Part shown: in pieces, positions 13,852 to 23,374 of the stretch
Layout: each line of letters opens with the position of its first letter
Position numbering within the stretch: position 1 is the stretch's first letter
DNA from: a virus
Virus genome (UHGV): UHGV-0281963
Direction: 5' to 3' (one strand)
Length of the DNA: 23,374 nucleotides
Made by a program: the position numbers and the translations under genes
Notes under the pieces: generated by a model
What the model was told of the DNA's origin: nothing
Seen by the model: only the letters and a program-made list of their open reading frames with translations
Databases searched by the model: none

Positions 13852-14934
13852 TTACCCCCTGAAACCCGGCGGAATTTCGGTGTCCGGTTCAGAAATGTGA
13901 TTCACGCAACGCAGGCTGACTGCGCCAGCCTTCGGCAGCGACCACGGATTTTCGAAATTCCTGTTCGGGCCAAAAAACGTCGATGCCTGCTGAACAAATT
14001 CAGTTCCCGCTTTCCCGGTAGCCTCCAGGTATCTTGCGTAACGCCTCACGCCATCCAGCACGACATCCGGTGACACCCCTTCGCGTAATCTGGCCCTCCA
14101 GGCATTGAACGCGGATTTCTTCGGGTTTGACCCTGCCCGATGCGGATATTCACGCCAGACCCGTTCGAACACGTCAGGATAATCAACTCGTCCCGCAGAC
14201 GGTCCCGGCATCGCCCGGGTTAACCCAATCGGCTTCCCGCTCATCGCGGAATCGGCTTCAGGCTGCTGCGGTTGGCGTTGTTGCTCCGGTTCGACGATCA
14301 GCACCTGCTGCACACAACGCCCGGAATCTGCTTCCGGTGTCGTGCCAGCTGGTCCTGGACGTTCAGTCAGAACAGGACAAAAATCCCCCTGTGGGTCCGT
14401 GGCGATTTTTTCGCCATGGACCAGAAGGGTTTTATCCCTTTCCTGTTCTTGTTCCTGTTCCTGTTCTTGGCTTGAAAGGGGCTCTGAAGGGGCTTCAATT
14501 TTCCGACATGATTCACGTCTGACATCCAGGTGGAAATCATCCTTATATCTATCATAAAAGGATGATAAAAAAGGATTTTCCAGCAACGCGGAATATTCAT
14601 TTCTTACCCCAGCACAACGGTTATCGCCAGGTTTCAGCGATTCACCAACCTGCCATGCTGCCATTTCATGCACCCATACAACCTCAGAATCATGGTCATA
14701 GCTGCAAAAACCAGCCTCGCAAGCCATTTGAAGCCCCTTAGAAGCCCCTTCAGGATCAAGTCCGGTTTCGTGAGCAATGTACAAAACAGGCAGGTAATAA
14801 AGGCCCAGCATATTGGAATGAGGCGAGGTCATCATATACAACGCCACTACCATACTTTCCGGACCAGACTTCCTTAGTTTTCGCCCTGTATCGCCTAACC
14901 AGAACTGAGGTGAAATTGTTGCGTAATTACGCAT
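13852..14934 (-). CDS. phage replication initiation/organiser protein (YdaU-like), with internal QEQEQEQEQE repeat
   Basis: 360-aa ORF immediately upstream of the DnaC-like gene (Rac ydaU-ydaV-like order); RBS GAGGGG before ATG 14934; contains an internal copy of the iteron-like repeat. Confidence 0.7.
   Translation of the reverse strand: MRNYATISPQFWLGDTGRKLRKSGPESMVVALYMMTSPHSNMLGLYYLPVLYIAHETGLDPEGASKGLQMACEAGFCSYDHDSEVVWVHEMAAWQVGESLKPGDNRCAGVRNEYSALLENPFLSSFYDRYKDDFHLDVRRESCRKIEAPSEPLSSQEQEQEQEQERDKTLLVHGEKIATDPQGDFCPVLTERPGPAGTTPEADSGRCVQQVLIVEPEQQRQPQQPEADSAMSGKPIGLTRAMPGPSAGRVDYPDVFERVWREYPHRAGSNPKKSAFNAWRARLREGVSPDVVLDGVRRYARYLEATGKAGTEFVQQASTFFGPNRNFENPWSLPKAGAVSLRCVNHISEPDTEIPPGFRG
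14194..14283. repeat. iteron-like direct repeat, copy A (inside the replication gene)
   Basis: cgcagacggtcccggcatcgcccgggttaacccaatcggcttc...aggctgctgcggttggcgtt recurs at 14966-15027 and 15058-15117. Confidence 0.6.
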
Positions 14935-14965
14935 AGTCCCCTCGCATACAAGATTTACTCCATAC

Positions 14966-15117
14966 CGCAGACGGTCCCGGTATCTCCCGGGTTAACCCAA
15001 TCGGCTTCAGGCTGCTGCGGTTGGTGTGACTGCACATTGGTGTGACTGCACATCTTCACAGACGGTCCCGGTATCTCCGGGTTAACCCAATCGGCTTCAG
15101 GCTGCTGCGGTTGGTGT
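14966..15117. repeat. iteron-like direct repeats, copies B and C, separated by a tandem 16-bp duplication (ttggtgtgactgcaca x2 at 15021-15052)
   Basis: Two near-identical ~60-bp units (gacggtcccggtatctc(c)cgggttaacccaatcggcttcaggctgctgcggttggtgt) upstream of the replication gene start; seen directly in sequence. Confidence 0.6.
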
Positions 15118-15187
15118 TGTTGCTGGCGAAATTCTTCCAGATGTGGCAGAATTATTCCCGTGTATTGCTCCATGCCCTGCCTGAATA

Positions 15188-15600: not shown

Positions 15601-15825
15601 TTATTCAGCCTGGTTCGGATGAGGAAACAGGTGCGGTAAGTCCGGGCGAATTTCGTAAGCCTTAACCTGACCATTGGTGGCATTAACGATAGCGAAAACT
15701 TTTTCAGGAGAAACTTTTCCGCCTCGCAACCATTTATGAACAGCGGGCTGTGATACGCCGCAATCAGCTGCAAGTCGTTTTTGACTGCCAACAATATTCA
15801 AGGCTCGCTGAATCACTAAATTCAT
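15601..15825 (-). CDS. cro: Cro-like HTH repressor
   Basis: MNLVIQRALNIVGSQKRLAADCGVSQPAVHKWLRGGKVSPEKVFAIVNATNGQV: small HTH protein divergent from cI across the operator region; GAGG 7 nt before ATG 15825. The ORF-track start at 15879 is rejected as a hydrophobic upstream extension. Confidence 0.7.
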   Translation of the reverse strand: MNLVIQRALNIVGSQKRLAADCGVSQPAVHKWLRGGKVSPEKVFAIVNATNGQVKAYEIRPDLPHLFPHPNQAE

Positions 15826-15852: not shown

Positions 15853-15924
15853 TAACCAAAAATAACATGAGTTATACACCAGGGCAATAACAATTGTTGT
15901 TTTACTTTTGATAACCGTGGTTAT
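15853..15924. promoter_or_regulatory. OR operator region between cro and cI: ATAAC-N4-GTTAT palindromes
   Basis: ataacatgagttat (15862-15875) and ataaccgtggttat (15911-15924), plus ataaccaaaaataac and palindrome aacaattgtt (15889-15898). Confidence 0.55.
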
Positions 15925-15935
15925 AGATTACAGGT

Positions 15936-16643
15936 ATGAAAACATTCGCAGAAAGACTAAATGCCGCCATGAGTTCAGCCGGGTTGTCACAAGCACAACT
16001 TGCAGACATGGTGGGGGTATCACAACCAGCCATACAAAAGATGTCATCTGGTAAAACAACCGGATCACGTAAAATGGTCGAATTAGCCAACGCGTTAAGA
16101 GTTCGCCCTGAATGGCTAAGCTCTGGTATAGGGTCAATGAGACCACAGAGCGCAGAAGAGCCATCTAATGCTCGGGAATCATCTTTAAAAGCTATCGCCT
16201 GGGATGATCATCAAAATGATAATGAAGAATTTGTTGCGCTCCCCCTTCTAAATATTTCACTTTCAGCTGGCGGAGGAAGTTGTGCATTGGAGGAGTCCGC
16301 AGAATTCTCTCTAGTTTTTAGGCGCTATTACCTGAAAAAAATGGGAGTTCCAGAAAAAGCGGCAAAGTTGGTCAGGGTTGTTGGGCAAAGCATGGAGCCA
16401 ACACTCCATGATGGTGATGTGGTGGGGGTAAACACGCAAGATACGAGCATCAGGGATGGTAAAACATATGCAATTTGCCAAGCTGATTTGTTAAGGGTAA
16501 AAACGCTCATAGCCACGCCAACATCGGTAATTATCAGATCGATAAACCGCGAAGAGTATCCTGATGAAGTAATGAACAGAGAAGAATTCTACAAAAACGT
16601 AAGAATCATAGGGCGAGTGTTCTGGTCATCACATAGCTGGTAA
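15936..16643 (+). CDS. cI: CI-type prophage repressor (N-terminal HTH, C-terminal S24 LexA-like autopeptidase)
   Basis: HTH segment LSQAQLADMVGVSQPAIQKM; S24 motif VVGQSMEPTL (Ser nucleophile) and downstream Lys (RVK); divergent from cro. Confidence 0.85.
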   Translation: MKTFAERLNAAMSSAGLSQAQLADMVGVSQPAIQKMSSGKTTGSRKMVELANALRVRPEWLSSGIGSMRPQSAEEPSNARESSLKAIAWDDHQNDNEEFVALPLLNISLSAGGGSCALEESAEFSLVFRRYYLKKMGVPEKAAKLVRVVGQSMEPTLHDGDVVGVNTQDTSIRDGKTYAICQADLLRVKTLIATPTSVIIRSINREEYPDEVMNREEFYKNVRIIGRVFWSSHSW

Positions 16644-16768
16644 TCAGACTCCAACTGAACTTTTGCTATAAGAACACTCACGAAGAACGGCCTTTTATTG
16701 TGCTCAATACCACCGATGGTAAACCATTCGCCAAGTAGCCAATTCATAAAATGCCATTTCTAAATCCC

Positions 16769-16794
16769 CCCGGCTCCAGTGCCGGGTTTTATTT
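16769..16794 (+). terminator. rho-independent terminator downstream of cI
   Basis: Stem cccggc (16769-16774) / gccggg (16781-16786) followed by ttttattt. Confidence 0.55.
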
Positions 16795-16796
16795 AC

Positions 16797-17018
16797 TTAA
16801 TTACACAGTCGCATATCCTGAAGTAACACATCTATAGCTAACTTCACAGCGAGATCATCCAATTCATCATGGTGAAGCACTCGGATCATTCCCGCAATAG
16901 CATCTGCTGAAATAGCTTCCCCAGTAGCAATAACCTCAAGCAACGACACCCCTAGAATTTCGACTACCCGCTGGTGCAACACACCAAATTCCCCTTCGAT
17001 TAACATGCAATCACCCAT
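16797..17018 (-). CDS. hypothetical small acidic protein (about 73 aa) between cI and pL/OL (rex-equivalent position, opposite orientation)
   Basis: ORF-track ORF (88 aa from 17063); preferred start ATG 17018 with AAAGG/AAGGGGG upstream; no family recognised. Confidence 0.4.
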   Translation of the reverse strand: MGDCMLIEGEFGVLHQRVVEILGVSLLEVIATGEAISADAIAGMIRVLHHDELDDLAVKLAIDVLLQDMRLCN

Positions 17019-17113
17019 AACAATCAGCCTTTCCCCCTTGAAAATATCACGCGGATACCACAAAAAATAAAATATTTTTGTTATCAGTCATTTATAACGT
17101 TTTTCATAAAATG

Positions 17114-17154
17114 ATAAATATAGTTATTGCACAACCAGATAACTTAGGTTATCT
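17114..17154. promoter_or_regulatory. OL operator region: 18-bp perfect palindrome agATAACttagGTTATct plus ataaatatagttat
   Basis: agataacttaggttatct at 17137-17154 shares the ATAAC-N4-GTTAT half-sites of OR; second imperfect site at 17114-17127. Confidence 0.5.
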
Positions 17155-17202
17155 TCAATTCAACAGCAGGACGCTGGAAGCCAAACGGAACAGATTGGCC
17201 GG

Positions 17203-17240
17203 CTCTTTAACATTGATGGACTCTCAACCTAACCGTTGAG
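17203..17240 (+). promoter_or_regulatory. nutL-like site (boxA GCTCTTTAA plus boxB-like hairpin)
   Basis: gGCTCTTTAAcattg (17202-17215), same 14-mer as in nutR; hairpin ctcaac-ctaacc-gttgag at 17223-17240; upstream of the N-like gene. Confidence 0.55.
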
Positions 17241-17351
17241 ACCAAAATCTAAGTGGTTTTGGGGATGACGCGAATTTCAGTTGCAAGGCCGCGATCGAGA
17301 AGAAAAACACCTCGACGCGTCATACACCAAAGCCACTTAAAGGAGACCATC

Positions 17352-17657
17352 ATGGTAACCATAATCTGGAAAGAATCCAAAGGTACGGCAAAAAGCCGCT
17401 ATAAAGCTCGCAGGGAAGAACTTATTGCAGAGCGGCGCAGTAGTGAAAGACTGACACGGAAGATTGCGCTAAAGATCTCTGGTTGCGTCGGAGCAGACAA
17501 AGCAGTATCACTCGGAAGCCTTCGCTGCAAGAAGGCAGAAGAAGTCGAGAGTAAACAGAACCGTATTTACTACCGCAAACCACGCAGTGAAATGGGTGTG
17601 ACTTGCTCAGGCCGCCAGAAACAACGCGGAAAATCAATTCCGGCTTATTACGATTGA
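17352..17657 (+). CDS. N-like antitermination protein (basic, Arg/Lys-rich N-terminus)
   Basis: First gene after nutL; RBS AAGGAG 6 nt before ATG 17352; MVTIIWKESKGTAKSRYKARREELIAERRSSERLTRK is basic like an arginine-rich motif. Assigned by position and composition; no sequence similarity to lambda N claimed. Confidence 0.5.
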   Translation: MVTIIWKESKGTAKSRYKARREELIAERRSSERLTRKIALKISGCVGADKAVSLGSLRCKKAEEVESKQNRIYYRKPRSEMGVTCSGRQKQRGKSIPAYYD

Positions 17658-19078: not shown

Positions 19079-19300
19079 ATGATTGCTCATCACTTCGGAA
19101 CTGATGAAATACCACGTCAGTGCGTGACGCCTGGCGATTATGTTCTTCATGAAGGTCGGACATATATCGCTTCAGCAAACAATATTGAAAAGAGAAAACT
19201 CTATATTCGTAACTTCACAACAAAAACATGCATTACCGACTGCATGATTAAAGTTTTCATCGGGCGCGATGGCTTACCCGTAAAAGCAGCGTCGTTGTGA
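19079..19300 (+). CDS. hypothetical protein (73 aa)
   Basis: GGAG then ATG 19079 ([14 protein letters not shown]...); the ORF-track start at 19061 is a GTG; no similarity to DicB recognised. Confidence 0.45.
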
Positions 19301-19383
19301 CGAGTAATAAAATACACCTTCCATATCTGTAACAGACAAGCCGAAATAAAACCGCATTAATTATCAATCACGGAAAAATCAAA

Positions 19384-19770
19384 ATGAAAGAACTTGCGCA
19401 AAATGAAATATTTTCCAAAACCAGTCCTGATGCAATAAATGAACTCAAAGAAATTGCAGAACGCATCAGTAAAATATGCAAAGAATACAAAATCGACTTT
19501 GTATTTTCTTTTTCAGTGCTTACAGAAGTTGGAAATAACGAATATAAGGACAGTCGTTTTGTTTTATGTGGGTTAAATGGCAAAACACCAAGCCCATATA
19601 TTCATGCTGCACGTGAAGTTGTCAGAAGCAACATTGGAGTACAACAAATCCATACACTTGCACAGGCTCTTGAGTTTGCAAGAGAAAATTCTGAGTGCGA
19701 CTGCCCTGAATGCCAGCACGAAAAGGGAAAAACAACTCACAAAACAGCAAACCAGGCAACCTTCCACTGA
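19384..19770 (+). CDS. hypothetical protein (128 aa) with C-terminal Cys cluster (ECDCPECQHEKG)
   Basis: ORF-track ORF with ATG 19384; AT-rich; weak hairpin aaatccgg...ccggattt (19776-19803) downstream. Confidence 0.5.
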   Translation: MKELAQNEIFSKTSPDAINELKEIAERISKICKEYKIDFVFSFSVLTEVGNNEYKDSRFVLCGLNGKTPSPYIHAAREVVRSNIGVQQIHTLAQALEFARENSECDCPECQHEKGKTTHKTANQATFH

Positions 19771-19877
19771 AATAAAAATCCGGCAGCGCAGGCTACCGGA
19801 TTTCTCCCTGCGTCACCGTATTCGGAGAAATCAGACAAAGGGCCGCTAATTCTAATCCAGCCAGAGGTTTAAATACA

Positions 19878-21950
19878 ATGAGCGCTGATAAACAGACTTT
19901 TGCACTACACTGCGAAGCAAAAAACGATAAAGTCAGAAAACGCCTTGGCATCAAAGGCGGTTTTTTCTGGACCGAGGCCAGAAAACTTTCTGTCGCAGTT
20001 TCCCGCTGCATTGCAGCCATGGACGATGCAGGCTACGACGAGGATGATTTCAAAAAACCCGTTCGCGTAAATTTCCCCGTCGTGAATGACCTTCCACCGG
20101 AAGGCGTGTTTGATACTGAATTCTGCAACCGCTATGAAAAAGGCGGTAACGATGGCATCACCATGATGGCTATCCCCTTCGATGACAACATCAACGGTGA
20201 AGATGCCACAACTGCTGGCGATGACAACGATAACCTGGACGGAACTATTCCGGATGATGTGGAGAAAAGCGAATCCCCGGACAGCGACGATGACTGTTCT
20301 GAGTGTGAAATTCCCGTCGCCACTCTGAGCCTTACTCATCGCTTCCTTCACCTCTTCTTATTCAGCAAAGATGAAGATGGAAAATACCGGCATCATGCCA
20401 CACCAGAACAACGCAATAACGTGATCCGTATGGAGATGGACACAGAGGACAGTTACCTTCAGAGCCTGCTTACTGCTGTGCGCGCCGCGCATCATGAACT
20501 GGATAAACTGACGAACTATCACCTTAGTCGCCTGGCTGAATCTGTAGGGAAAGCATTCCCCCACTCTGCAAATCATCGCATCAGCCCGGCTGAATTCGAC
20601 AAGTTCATTTCCACCTGGATGAAAACTGACTACCTTGATCAGGGCCTGCTGACAAAAGAATGGCAGAACGGAAATTATGTTTCAGGCATTACCCGTACGC
20701 CTTCCGGTGCTAACGCTGGCGGCGGAAATATTACCGATCGTGGTGAAGGATTCAAACATGATAAGACATCACTCGCACGAGATGTAGCCACCGGCGTTCT
20801 GGCCCGTTCAATGGATGTGGATATTTATAACCTGCACCCAGCACACGCAAAACGCGTTGAAGAAATCGTGTCAGAGAATAAGCCGCCCTTTTCTGTTTTT
20901 CGCGACAAATTTATCGCCATGCCCGGTGGGCTGGATTATTCCCGCGCCATTGTGGTGGCTTCCGTGAAAGAAGCACCAATCGGCATTGAGGCCATCCCGG
21001 CACGCGTGACTGAATATCTCAACAAAGTGTTGACCGAAACCGATCACGCTAACCCGGATCCGGAAATCGTGGAAATTGCCTGCGGTCGCTCATCAGCACC
21101 GATGCCGCAGCGCGGAACAGCAGAAGGAAAACATGGCGATGAAGAAAAGCAACAAACATCGGACACAATGGCTAATGAACAGGCAGCGCCTGAATCAGTG
21201 GAAGAAATTCCAGTTAAACATAATGAGGACACGCAATCACTGGAAAATGTCTCATCTGTAGAAACGAAATACCAGGAACTGAGGGAGGAACTCAATAAAG
21301 CCAGGGAAAACATCCCCCCAAAAAATCCAGTCGATGCCGACAAATTACTGGCTGCCTCGCGTGGAGAATTCGTTGAAGGCATCAGTAACCCTGCTGATCC
21401 GAAGTGGGTGAAGGGGATCCAGACTCGCGACACTGAGGACCAGAATCAGCCCAAAGTGGAACAAATTGCCCCAGAAGCGGGACAAAACAGCCCGGATACG
21501 CAACAAAACGGGCCAGAAGAGCAACAGCCAGGGCCAGTAATGCAACAGGAAGTGGAAAAGGTTTGCACCACATGCAGTCAGAACGGTGGCGGCCATTGCC
21601 CTGACTGTGGTCCAGTAATGGGAGATGAAACTTACGCTGAAACTTTTGGAGAAAATGACGCCGCTGATGGAGAAGACTCAGCACAAACTGAGGAGAAGAT
21701 CATTCAGGAAAACTCTGTTGATGCCGCTCAGGAGGGCGAAACCGTTGTTCAGAACGAGCCAGGCAGTGATACGTCCGGCGATGACGCCAATTCTGAGCCA
21801 GTAACTCTCGACTGGAAAAGACAGCTCGTGATTGCCGCCGTCTATGGTTTGTGCGCCAACCCCGCATGTATAGCCACAGCGCCAGCAATCCCTGATATCG
21901 CCATCATGATTGCCAACAGGCTTGAAAATTTCGAAGGTGATAAATCATGA
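19878..21950 (+). CDS. large acidic hypothetical protein (690 aa) with Cys motifs ([24 protein letters not shown]) immediately upstream of gam
   Basis: RBS AGAGG before ATG 19878; stop overlaps the gam start (ATGA); long Asp/Glu-rich stretches; no family recognised. Confidence 0.7.
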
Positions 21951-22243
21951 ATGCCTGGCTTATCCCCGATCGCATTGAAGAGCAGTCATGGGCACGACAC
22001 TACCAGCAAATTGCCCGTGAAGAAACTGAAGCTGAGCTGGCAGACGACCTGGAAAAAGGTCTGCCCCAACACCTGTTTGAATCGCTATGCATCGATAATC
22101 TGCAACGTCACGGGGCCAGCAAAAAAGCTATTTCCCGTGCATTTGATGACGATGTCGATTTTCAGGAACGCATGGCAGAACACATCCGCTACATGGCTGA
22201 AACCATCGCCCGTCACCAAATTAATATTGATTCAGAGGTATAA
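21947..22243 (+). CDS. gam: Gam (RecBCD inhibitor)
   Basis: …[50 protein letters not shown]…[27 protein letters not shown] is collinear with lambda Gam as I recall it. Confidence 0.9.
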
Positions 22244-22248
22244 AACGG

Positions 22249-23034
22249 ATGAGTACAGCACTCGCAACGCTGGCAGGGAAGCTGGCTGAACGTGTCGGCA
22301 TGGATTCTGTCGACCCACAGGAACTAATCACCACTCTTCGCCAGACGGCATTTAAAGGTGATGCCAGCGATGCGCAATTTATCGCATTGTTGATCGTCGC
22401 CAACCAGTACGGCCTTAATCCCTGGACGAAAGAAATTTACGCCTTCCCTGACAAGCAGAACGGCATCGTTCCGGTGGTTGGCGTTGATGGCTGGTCCCGC
22501 ATTATCAATGAAAACCAGCAGTTTGATGGCATGGACTTTGAGCAGGACAATGAGTCCTGTACATGCCGGATTTACCGCAAAGATCGCAATCACCCGATCT
22601 GCGTTACCGAGTGGATGGATGAATGTCGCCGCGCACCATTCAAAACCCGCGAAGGCAGAGAAATCACCGGACCGTGGCAGTCGCATCCCAAACGGATGTT
22701 ACGGCACAAAGCCATGATTCAGTGTGCTCGCCTGGCCTTCGGATTTGCTGGCATCTATGACAAGGATGAAGCCGAGCGTATTGTCGAAAATACTGCATAT
22801 ACTACAGAACGTCAGCCGGAACGCGACATCACCCCGGTTAACGAAGAAACCATGTCGGAAATTAACGCCCTTCTTACTTCCATGGAAAAAACGTGGGATG
22901 ACGACCTGTTGCCGCTCTGTTCCCAGATTTTTCGCCGCAACATTTACACATCTTCAGAACTAACACAGGCTGAAGCTGTGAAGGTTCTTGGATTCCTGAA
23001 ACAGAAAGTCACAGAGCAGAAGGTAGCAGCATGA
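22249..23034 (+). CDS. bet: Bet (Red-beta single-strand annealing protein)
   Basis: [128 protein letters not shown]... is near-identical to lambda Bet as I recall it. Confidence 0.95.
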
Positions 23035-23374
23035 CACCGGACATTATCCTGCAACGTACAGGGATCGACGTGAGAGCTGTCGAACAGGGGGATGATGCGT
23101 GGCACAAATTACGGCTCGGCGTCATCACCGCTTCAGAAGTTCACAACGTGATAGCAAAACCCCGCTCAGGAAAGAAATGGCCTGACATGAAAATGTCCTA
23201 CTTCCACACCCTGCTGGCTGAGGTTTGCACCGGTGTGGCTCCGGAAGTTAACGCTAAAGCGCTGGCCTGGGGAAAACAGTACGAGAACGACGCCAGAGCC
23301 CTCTTTGAGTTCACTTCCGGCGTGAATGTTACTGAATCCCCGATCATCTATCGCGACGAAAGTATGCGCACCGC
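23031..23374 (+). CDS. exo: Exo (Red-alpha 5'-3' exonuclease), N-terminal part; 3' end beyond the window
   Basis: [87 protein letters not shown]... matches lambda Exo; ATG overlaps the bet stop (ATGA). Confidence 0.95.

What the first reader, a model, noticed from the sequence alone, without database searches (positions are those of the whole stretch)
16797..17100. Small acidic ORF at the rex-equivalent position, oriented against cI
In lambda the cI-to-pL interval carries rexAB, a defence system. Here a 73-88-aa minus-strand ORF sits immediately after the cI terminator, convergent with cI, so it needs its own promoter within or next to the OL region. Small proteins at this hotspot are often exclusion factors.
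Basis: inference. Interest (0 to 1): 0.4.

Follow-up and report, generated by a model that had tools for sequence, protein, structure and literature searches.

The report
Conserved small acidic prophage gene beside pL
The ORF is a real 69-residue acidic protein gene of unknown function, with its own promoter, that sits next to the leftward early promoter in many enterobacterial lambdoid prophages and marks the fixed outer edge of the variable defence-gene slot downstream of the repressor.

Summary
A minus-strand ORF ends 10 nt from the cI terminator hairpin, convergent with cI and divergent from pL/N.

The product is most likely 69 aa (16797-17006, start ATG 17006), not 73-88 aa. Its pI is 4.4. 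It matches phrog_3946 (unknown function, E=5.6e-30) and about 600 'hypothetical' proteins from Enterobacterales prophages. dN/dS is 0.02-0.3 with saturated synonymous sites, so it is a protein-coding gene.

A conserved extended -10 promoter-like element (TGn + TATTTT, 17049-17041) lies about 35 nt upstream. It falls outside the three OL operators I identified, so expression in the lysogen is plausible but untested.

The new point concerns position. In relatives, the rex-equivalent cargo (BstA, PD-Lambda-2, P63C proteins and others; 31 architectures in 71 loci) lies between cI and this gene. The small gene is therefore the constant flank of the hotspot, not one of its interchangeable cargoes. 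In this window the slot is empty.

Best guess: an autonomous accessory gene whose acidic helical product acts by binding another protein. A role in exclusion is possible but unsupported. Interest is moderate.

The parts
16797..17006 (-). Coding sequence of the small acidic protein: 69 aa plus stop, MLIEGEFGVLHQRVVEILG...RLCN.
   Evidence: ORF listing. The start aligns with family members and with RefSeq WP_024166114.1. phrog_3946 E=5.6e-30. dN/dS 0.02-0.32. pI 4.41.
17007..17063 (-). Upstream in-frame extension: ATG 17018 gives 73 aa and TTG 17063 gives 88 aa. Probably 5' leader rather than coding. SD-like GGGTGA at 17016-17011.
   Evidence: Relatives start at the position equivalent to 17006. 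TTG 17063 lies upstream of the predicted transcription start (about 17034).
17041..17049 (-). Extended -10 promoter-like element: TG (17049-17048), one base, then TATTTT (17046-17041). Predicted start near 17034.
   Evidence: Sequence. The same TGnNAnnnT element sits 30-45 nt upstream of the start codon in 45 of 50 distinct upstream sequences, against 6.2 in shuffles. Not verified experimentally.
17062..17075 (-). Conserved T-rich block (ATTTTATTTTTT) at the -35/UP position of the small-gene promoter.
   Evidence: TTTATTTTT (at least 8 of 9 matches) is present at the equivalent position in 45 of 50 distinct upstream sequences.
16769..16796 (+). Hairpin CCCGGC-N6-GCCGGG plus T-run: the intrinsic terminator of the cI transcript. 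On the minus strand it follows the small gene's stop codon but has no U-run.
   Evidence: Terminator scan. A similar AAAACCCGGC...GCCGGG hairpin follows the stop codon in many relatives.
16644..16768 (.). 125-bp non-coding spacer between cI and the terminator. This is the cargo slot, empty here, which in relatives holds 1-3 accessory or defence genes.
   Evidence: Comparison with 71 related loci.
17094..17107 (.). OL3 candidate, ATAACGTTTTTCAT (8 of 10 specified bases). Centre about -66 relative to the small-gene transcription start.
   Evidence: Operator scan with ATAACnnnnGTTAT.
17114..17127 (.). OL2 candidate, ATAAATATAGTTAT (9 of 10).
   Evidence: All sites with at least 9 of 10 matches in the window lie in OR or OL.
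17139..17152 (.). OL1 candidate, ATAACTTAGGTTAT (10 of 10). It overlaps the pL spacer and -10.
17127..17155 (+). pL candidate: -35 TTGCAC (17127-17132), 17-nt spacer, -10 TATCTT (17150-17155).
   Evidence: Read from the sequence. Homology to other phages with a 21-type N begins at about 17155-17164, at the pL start.
17200..17241 (+). nutL: boxA-like CGGCTCTTTAA (17200-17210) and a boxB hairpin TCTCAACCTAACCGTTGAGA (17222-17241).
   Evidence: Sequence. 'Putative Nut boxA site' is annotated at the homologous place in mEpX1, HK629 and mEp235.
17352..17657 (+). Antiterminator N (phage-21 type), divergent from the small gene.
   Evidence: phrog_271 E=7.6e-35; Pfam N_peptide below threshold.
15936..16643 (+). 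cI repressor (HTH_3 + Peptidase_S24), convergent with the small gene.
15862..15924 (.). OR: three operators, ATAACATGAGTTAT (15862), ATAACAATTGTTGT (15887) and ATAACCGTGGTTAT (15911).

Best explanation
The feature is a self-contained accessory (moron-type) cassette at the pL-proximal edge of the immunity region. It consists of a sigma-70 extended -10 promoter (17049-17041), a leader of about 28 nt with an SD-like sequence, and a 69-aa ORF (17006-16797). It ends at the hairpin that also terminates the convergent cI transcript.

Shown:
- It is a protein-coding gene under strong purifying selection.
- It belongs to a family restricted to Enterobacterales prophages.
- Its position next to OL, divergent from N, stays constant while the repressor type, the N type and the cargo between cI and it all vary.
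- The promoter-like element is conserved.
- The strong operators lie at least about 70 bp upstream of the predicted start.

Inferred:
- Because the core promoter is free of operators, the gene is probably transcribed in the lysogen independently of pL.
- The product is cytoplasmic: no signal peptide or membrane span was evident by reading the sequence.
- It is too acidic to bind DNA and is predicted to be three amphipathic helices. It would therefore act by binding another protein, as a small stoichiometric inhibitor or adaptor, possibly as an oligomer.

My most likely guess for its role is phage-versus-phage conflict (exclusion or counter-defence), by analogy with other lysogen-expressed immunity-region genes. 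The target is unknown.

Sub-probabilities: real gene about 0.97; own promoter and lysogen expression about 0.6; exclusion or defence-related role about 0.3.
For: - Family membership and conservation: phrog_3946 E=5.6e-30; 611 profile hits, all 'hypothetical', from Salmonella, Klebsiella, Citrobacter, Enterobacter, Serratia and others.
- The exact 69-aa protein occurs on at least 1000 contigs.
- dN/dS is 0.02-0.32 with saturated dS, so the constraint is on the protein and not on the DNA.
- Synteny N(-) <pL/OL> small gene(+) >< cargo(-) cI(-) cro(+) is seen in phages epsilon34, ST104, S107 and RAH1, in 16 IMG/VR loci inspected by hand, in two metagenome contigs and in E. coli ST540.
- There are 31 cargo/repressor architectures in 71 loci.
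- The conserved extended -10 occurs in 45 of 50 distinct upstream sequences, against 6.2 in shuffles.
- Operator-like sequences shared with OR lie at about -72 to -118, with a weaker one at about -50 to -67. This includes a locus with lambda-type OL1-3 (L067, OL3 centre about -67).
- A divergent subgroup sits in a different accessory-gene cluster, after the tail-fibre genes and next to DinI genes. The cassette is therefore mobile and does not depend on pL or cI.
- Protein properties: pI 4.05-4.6 across the family; three predicted helices.
Against: - There are no expression data. The promoter is a motif match only: the generic scan missed it because the -35 is poor, and the window's -10 (TATTTT) is weaker than in relatives (CATACT, GATACT).
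- No terminator with a U-run exists on the gene's own strand.
- GC content does not differ from the neighbours, unlike many morons.
- There is no hit to any known defence model and no informative structural match.
- The AlphaFold model has low confidence (pLDDT 63).
- A fixed position next to OL is unusual for interchangeable accessory genes and could instead point to a regulatory role.
- A weak third operator at about -50 to -67 could allow cI to modulate the promoter.
Confidence: 0.42

Rival explanations
1. It is an early lytic gene under repressor control. cI bound at OL, especially at OL3 and through OL-OR looping, keeps the divergent promoter off in the lysogen. The protein is made on induction or infection and acts in host take-over or counter-defence, for example as a DNA mimic that blocks a nuclease or restriction enzyme.
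For: The gene sits back to back with pL, and its promoter starts about 25 bp beyond OL3. A weak operator-like site lies at about -50 to -67 in several immunity types. The strongly acidic helical composition is typical of DNA-mimic inhibitors; that comparison rests on my own knowledge and was not tested.
Against: No operator overlaps the -35 to +1 core in any immunity type examined. In the tail-fibre-distal context there is no repressor or operator nearby. No similarity to known anti-restriction or anti-defence folds was found.
Confidence: 0.22
2. It is a regulatory component of the lysis-lysogeny switch. The small protein would bind a switch component (cI, RecA, N, cII/cIII, or the proteases Lon or FtsH) and tune prophage stability or induction.
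For: It has an invariant location inside the immunity region, next to OL, across at least 5 repressor clusters and several N types. It is present even when the cargo slot is empty, as in this window.
Against: Its sequence does not co-vary with repressor or N type: nearly identical alleles occur with different cI and N. Many lambdoid phages lack it, including VT1-Sakai and mEpX1, which have the same N type. A subgroup occurs far from any switch genes.
Confidence: 0.15
3. Its main role is in cis. The promoter and hairpin would insulate pL from the convergent cI/cargo operon, or transcription from it would read through the hairpin as antisense RNA that dampens cI/cargo expression. The conserved block would also serve as a homology arm for cargo exchange. 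The peptide would be secondary.
For: The hairpin lacks a U-run on the gene's strand, so read-through into the antisense of cI/cargo is possible. The gene flanks a variable slot in two different prophage contexts.
Against: Synonymous sites are saturated while the amino-acid sequence is conserved (dN/dS 0.02-0.32). Selection therefore acts on the protein and not on the nucleotide sequence. No Rfam family matches.
Confidence: 0.08
4. It is a chance ORF in the intergenic region, or a decaying remnant.
For: Some phage records leave it unannotated. Occasional copies are damaged: g341c has a premature stop and L066 has no in-frame start.
Against: There is family-wide purifying selection, a conserved length of 66-69 aa, a conserved start and a conserved promoter.
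Confidence: 0.02

Closest known systems
Lambda rexAB (lysogen-expressed exclusion genes between cI and pL)
   Same: Lies in the same interval of the lambdoid immunity region. That interval is a recognised mosaic and moron hotspot (PMC7067206, PMC8585504).
   Different: rexAB is co-transcribed with cI on the same strand and encodes a two-protein system that includes a membrane protein (my own knowledge). This gene is on the opposite strand, is monocistronic, encodes a 69-aa soluble acidic protein and shows no sequence similarity. In relatives it coexists with the rex-position cargo rather than replacing it.
sieB of P22 and lambda (exclusion gene embedded antiparallel in the pL operon)
   Same: A precedent for a gene next to N, on the strand opposite to pL, with its own promoter. 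The strand is seen in the ST104 and VT1-Sakai annotations.
   Different: sieB lies on the other side of N and encodes a membrane protein of about 190 aa. There is no similarity.
Morons such as HK97 gp15 (promoter-gene-terminator units expressed from the prophage)
   Same: A compact unit with its own promoter-like element, bounded by a hairpin, inserted between two phage transcription units. A subgroup occurs in the classic tail-fibre-distal moron region.
   Different: Its position is fixed rather than variable. GC content is not atypical. The terminator is weak on its own strand. Expression and phenotype are untested.
BstA, PD-Lambda-2 and other cargo of the cI-pL hotspot
   Same: These are direct neighbours: in related loci they lie between cI and this gene.
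   Different: They are variable, are co-oriented with cI and are recognisable defence families. The small gene is constant, is convergent with them and matches no defence model.
phrog_3946 and RefSeq WP_024166114.1 (catalogued, uncharacterised)
   Same: This gene is a member: a full-length match at E=5.6e-30 and an identical RefSeq protein.
   Different: Nothing differs. The family has no assigned function and I found no paper on it.

Membership tests
phrog_3946 (PHROGs, unknown function) | Significant full-length match to the family profile | tested here: met
   E=5.6e-30, profile positions 2-67 of 67 aligned to residues 21-85 of the 88-aa ORF.
Rex-type exclusion (lambda RexA/RexB) | Sequence similarity to RexA or RexB | tested here: not met
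   No Pfam, NCBIfam or PADLOC hit, even at permissive E-values.
Rex-type exclusion (lambda RexA/RexB) | Co-transcription with cI from pRM on the same strand; two-gene system | tested here: not met
   The gene is on the opposite strand, is a single gene, and is separated from cI by a terminator.
Moron (independent transcription unit expressed from the prophage) | Own promoter | tested here: inconclusive
   A conserved extended -10 motif occurs in 45 of 50 distinct upstream sequences. This is motif evidence only.
Moron (independent transcription unit expressed from the prophage) | Own terminator | tested here: inconclusive
   A hairpin follows directly after the stop codon, but without a U-run on this strand.
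Moron (independent transcription unit expressed from the prophage) | Transcribed while the prophage is repressed | not testable with these tools
   The core promoter is free of operators, which is consistent. RNA data from a lysogen are needed.
Known anti-phage defence systems (PADLOC-DB v2) | Match to a defence protein model | tested here: not met
   No hits for the window protein or for four diverse relatives at E up to 10.
Type II antitoxin or immunity protein of an adjacent toxin | Operon with a cognate toxin gene, conserved as a pair | tested here: not met
   The gene is monocistronic. Neighbours vary (31 architectures in 71 loci) or are absent, as in this window. One recurring pairing with a 347-aa protein occurs in two contexts, but that partner is absent in L079.
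DUF2767 (label carried by one UniRef cluster, P0089) | Match to the Pfam model | tested here: not met
   No such Pfam or NCBIfam hit for P0089 or other members at E up to 10. The label could not be reproduced.
DNA-mimic inhibitors (Ocr/ArdA/Gam-like) | Surface array of carboxylates mimicking B-DNA; structural similarity to known mimics | tested here: inconclusive

The most novel reading that the evidence does not exclude
The small acidic protein is a functional partner of prophage cargo slots in general, not just a passenger. It is the one constant gene flanking a variable defence-gene slot in two unrelated prophage architectures: cI...small gene in lambdoid and P22-like phages, and small gene...DinI in a prophage with a Mu-type baseplate. 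It could be a new kind of helper, for example a counter-silencer that keeps newly acquired cargo expressed, a general self-immunity factor, or a novel small-protein exclusion or anti-defence factor. Its coding block and hairpin could also serve as the homology arm for cargo exchange.
Probability: 0.12. Interest if true: 0.7.

Novelty: new member of a known kind. Interest (0 to 1): 0.4.

Why it matters
The lambdoid immunity region is among the best-studied stretches of DNA in biology. Even so, a small gene under strong purifying selection, with its own conserved promoter, sits directly beside OL in hundreds of enterobacterial prophage variants and has no known function. These include Shiga-toxin phages and a prophage with lambda-type operators.

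Two uses follow. The first is practical. Together with cI, the gene delimits the cargo slot precisely, so the pair can anchor a search for new defence systems; this slot already holds BstA, PD-Lambda-2 and many uncharacterised genes. The second is biological. The gene is a tractable 69-residue candidate for a new lysogen-expressed exclusion, counter-defence or switch-tuning factor.

Tried and rejected
Homology and structure searches that gave nothing useful:
- Pfam, NCBIfam and PADLOC scans of the window protein and diverse relatives gave nothing above noise.
- A profile search of PDB sequences gave nothing (best E 0.15).
- AlphaFold gave pLDDT 55 from the single sequence and pLDDT 63 from a 70-sequence alignment.
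- Foldseek against PDB and BFVD gave no hit below E=1.
- The afdb50 library was unavailable.
- Rfam scan of 16500-17500: one sub-threshold potC hit inside cI, which I dismissed.
- The 'DUF2767' label on one UniRef cluster could not be reproduced.

Regulatory checks:
- I looked by eye for LexA boxes upstream of the gene in several alleles and found none.
- The generic promoter scan missed the promoter because the -35 is poor.

Hypotheses rejected:
- That the gene belongs to the N/pL module. Homology to other phages with a 21-type N starts only at the pL start, and nearly identical alleles occur with different N types.
- That it is an antitoxin or immunity partner of the adjacent cargo. The cargo varies or is absent.
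- That phages lacking the gene carry an unrecognised analogue at the same place. No comparable ORF exists in VT1-Sakai or mEpX1.

Other searches:
- The genome-contig scan found only 3 species representatives, so it was of little use for sampling context.
- Literature searches found no paper on the family. The epsilon34, phage L, BstA and prophage-transcriptome papers do not mention it.

Full report
**Anatomy of the window.**
- The region is a lambdoid immunity region in the orientation cro(-) | cI(+) ... pL(+) N(+).
- cro is 15601-15825, with YdaS/Cro-type HTH matches. cI is 15936-16643, with HTH_3 + Peptidase_S24. N is 17352-17657 and matches phrog_271; it reads as phage-21 type, starting MVTIIWKESKGTAKSRYKARR.
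- A terminator-like hairpin with a T-run on the cI strand lies at 16769-16786.
- The reported ORF runs 16797-17063 on the minus strand. That gives 88 aa from TTG 17063, 73 aa from ATG 17018 or 69 aa from ATG 17006.

**It is a real gene.**
- The ORF matches PHROG family 3946 (unknown function) over the whole profile, E=5.6e-30.
- A single-sequence search found few relatives. A profile built from ten members found 611 proteins, all labelled hypothetical, from Salmonella, Klebsiella, Citrobacter, Enterobacter, Yokenella, Serratia and others.
- The identical 69-aa protein is recorded on at least 1000 contigs from E. coli and Shigella.
- Family members are 66-69 aa, and their first residue aligns with ATG 17006. 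RefSeq calls the same start in E. coli FORC_069, whose sequence is 100% identical here (WP_024166114.1).
- Codon-level comparison of 15 alleles gives dN/dS of 0.02-0.32, with synonymous sites at or beyond saturation. The amino-acid sequence is under purifying selection and the nucleotide sequence as such is not. This also argues against a purely RNA-level or cis role for the coding stretch.
- Occasional copies are damaged. g341c has a premature stop, one IMG/VR copy lacks an in-frame start and one carries an in-frame deletion.

**The protein.**
- pI is 4.41 for this allele and 4.05-4.6 across the family, with 12-16 acidic against 3-7 basic residues. Reading the sequence, I saw no signal peptide and no uncharged stretch long enough to span a membrane.
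- AlphaFold with a 70-sequence alignment predicts three helices (residues 12-28, 34-45 and 52-67) at low confidence, pLDDT 63 and pTM 0.34. This may reflect folding only on oligomerisation or partner binding; that is my inference.
- The most conserved segment is the last helix (DLAVxLAIDVL).
- One UniRef cluster carries the label DUF2767, but I could not reproduce any such match.

**Regulatory signals.**
- A scan with ATAACnnnnGTTAT finds six strong sites in the window. Three are in OR (15862, 15887, 15911) and three are in OL (17139 at 10/10, 17114 at 9/10, 17094 at 8/10). Every site with at least 9 of 10 matches lies in one of these two clusters.
- pL reads TTGCAC-17 nt-TATCTT (17127-17155), overlapped by OL1 and OL2. 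It is followed by a boxA-like sequence and a long boxB hairpin (17200-17241). Homology to other phages with a 21-type N starts at about 17155-17164, which is at the pL start.
- On the minus strand, about 35 nt upstream of ATG 17006, lies TG-a-TATTTT (17049-17041), an extended -10 element. A T-rich block (17075-17062) precedes it.
- Aligning the upstream regions of relatives shows the same layout at the same distance: TGn followed by CATACT, GATACT, TATGCT or TATTTT. It occurs in 45 of 50 distinct upstream sequences, against 6.2 expected from shuffles. The T-rich block is also present in 45 of 50. The sequences are related, so these counts are not independent.
- The predicted start (about 17034) is downstream of TTG 17063. 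That excludes the 88-aa form if this promoter is the one used.
- Sequences shared between OL and OR in each locus lie about 72-118 bp upstream of this predicted start, with a weaker third site at about -50 to -67.
- One IMG/VR locus (L067) carries operators that match my recollection of the lambda OL1-OL2-OL3 sequences. Its repressor is 237 aa and looks close to lambda cI by eye. There OL3 is centred at about -67.
- The core promoter is thus operator-free in every immunity type examined. It follows, by inference only, that the gene can be transcribed in a repressed prophage.
- On the gene's own strand the hairpin after the stop codon lacks a U-run, both here and in most relatives. It is primarily the terminator of the convergent cI transcript.

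**Genomic context across relatives: the main new point.**
- I saw the same order in all of the following: phages epsilon34, ST104, S107 and Klebsiella RAH1, 16 diverse IMG/VR loci inspected by hand, two metagenomic contigs carrying the alleles closest to the window's and E. coli ST540.
- That order is N-like gene (-), pL/OL, small gene (+), then convergent cargo genes (-), repressor (-), cro (+).
- Among 71 loci with enough flanking DNA there are 31 different combinations of cargo and repressor, with at least 5 repressor clusters and roughly 20 cargo clusters.
- The cargo includes BstA (KilA-N), PD-Lambda-2 (HigB-like plus HTH), P63C-domain proteins, ParA-like ATPases and DUF7946/DUF7947 proteins.
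- The literature describes the cI-n interval as a hotspot for accessory genes such as rexAB and bstA (PMC7067206, PMC8585504).
- The small gene is therefore not one of the interchangeable rex-position cargoes. It is the constant gene that bounds the slot on the pL side. In this window the slot is empty, a 125-bp spacer at 16644-16768.
- The gene is not universal. VT1-Sakai and mEpX1 share the N and nutL of this window but have no comparable ORF at the equivalent place.
- It is also rare. Only 50 plus 39 of 5426 complete E. coli genomes carry it, and only 3 of the species-representative genomes.

**A second context.**
- A divergent subgroup (37% identical to the window allele in the alignment) lies at the end of a prophage with a Mu-type baseplate. 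It follows the tail-fibre genes, the tail-fibre assembly gene and a nuclease-like gene, and it is followed by two DinI genes and then chromosomal genes.
- Here too it flanks a variable position. A 347-aa protein lies between it and DinI in L072 and L090 but not in L079.
- That 347-aa protein is 66% identical to the cargo of the lambdoid locus L049.
- So the cassette is mobile and does not need pL, OL, cI or N nearby. This weakens the idea that it is a dedicated part of the switch and favours an autonomous accessory role.

**Interpretation.**
- Best supported is a self-contained accessory cassette encoding a small acidic helical cytoplasmic protein that works by binding another protein. It is probably expressed in the lysogen.
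- A role in exclusion, defence or counter-defence is the most natural guess given the neighbourhood, but nothing tests it.
- Rivals are listed with their evidence:
  - an early gene modulated by cI through OL3;
  - a factor that tunes the switch;
  - a mainly cis or antisense role, disfavoured by the selection pattern;
  - a chance ORF, excluded.

**Comparison and novelty.**
- The family is catalogued (phrog_3946; RefSeq 'hypothetical protein') but uncharacterised, and I found no publication on it.
- As a kind of thing, a small autonomous accessory gene in the lambdoid immunity region, it is a new member of a known kind.
- Interest is moderate. It would be higher only if the protein turns out to have a general function linked to cargo slots or a new exclusion or counter-defence mechanism.

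Noticed in passing
L062 5515-6276; L073 4619-5571; L028 4222-5301; L085 4312-5181; L083 4265-5341; L087 3739-5240: The slot between the repressor and the small gene holds BstA, PD-Lambda-2 (HigB-like plus HTH), P63C-domain proteins, DUF7946/DUF7947 proteins, ParA-like ATPases, a DUF6932 pair and several proteins with no family. There are 31 architectures in 71 loci. The cI...small-gene pair could serve as an anchor for mining new defence genes.
   Followed up: partly
L072 3989-5283; L079 3145-4763; L090 7371-10013: A divergent subgroup of the family lies at the end of a prophage with a Mu-type baseplate. It follows the tail-fibre genes and a PLD-type or endonuclease-like gene, and sits next to two DinI genes. 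A 347-aa protein is present or absent between the small gene and DinI, and is 66% identical to the cargo of lambdoid locus L049.
   Followed up: partly
L067 about 1240-1470 and 2200-2913: An IMG/VR prophage carries operators that match my recollection of lambda OL1-OL2-OL3, and a 237-aa repressor that looks close to lambda cI by eye. In place of rexAB it has the small gene plus a 133-aa cargo gene.
   Followed up: partly
L003 2448-2458 (ST104); equivalent position in most Salmonella-type alleles: A perfect palindrome, TGTTC-T-GAACA, lies immediately downstream of the -10 element of the small-gene promoter, around the predicted transcription start. It could be a regulator binding site. It is absent from the window allele.
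   Followed up: no
L059 (phage g341c), L066, L069: Damaged copies of the small gene: a premature stop in g341c, no in-frame start codon in L066 and an in-frame deletion in L069.
   Followed up: no
window 17071-17084: An operator half-site (AATATTTTTGTTAT, 7 of 10 matches) is centred about 43 bp upstream of the predicted small-gene start and 23 bp from OL3. The geometry recalls OR2 relative to pRM in lambda (my own knowledge). The match is weak and may be chance.
   Followed up: no
window 13852-15173: The 360-aa replication-region ORF contains a QEQEQEQEQE run and a QQPEAD... segment. The adjacent 72-aa ORF (14955-15173) repeats HQPQQPEADWVNP twice. A perfect 16-nt tandem repeat (TTGGTGTGACTGCACA, 2.1 copies) lies at 15021-15053. 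These may be origin or iteron-like repeats.
   Followed up: no
window about 19080-23374 (by alignment to L006 8300-12381): In the 100%-identical E. coli FORC_069 region, RefSeq annotates the pL operon with a Rac-type kil, a 690-aa RecE-family exonuclease, Gam, Bet and a lambda-type exonuclease. That is two recombination systems side by side.
   Followed up: no
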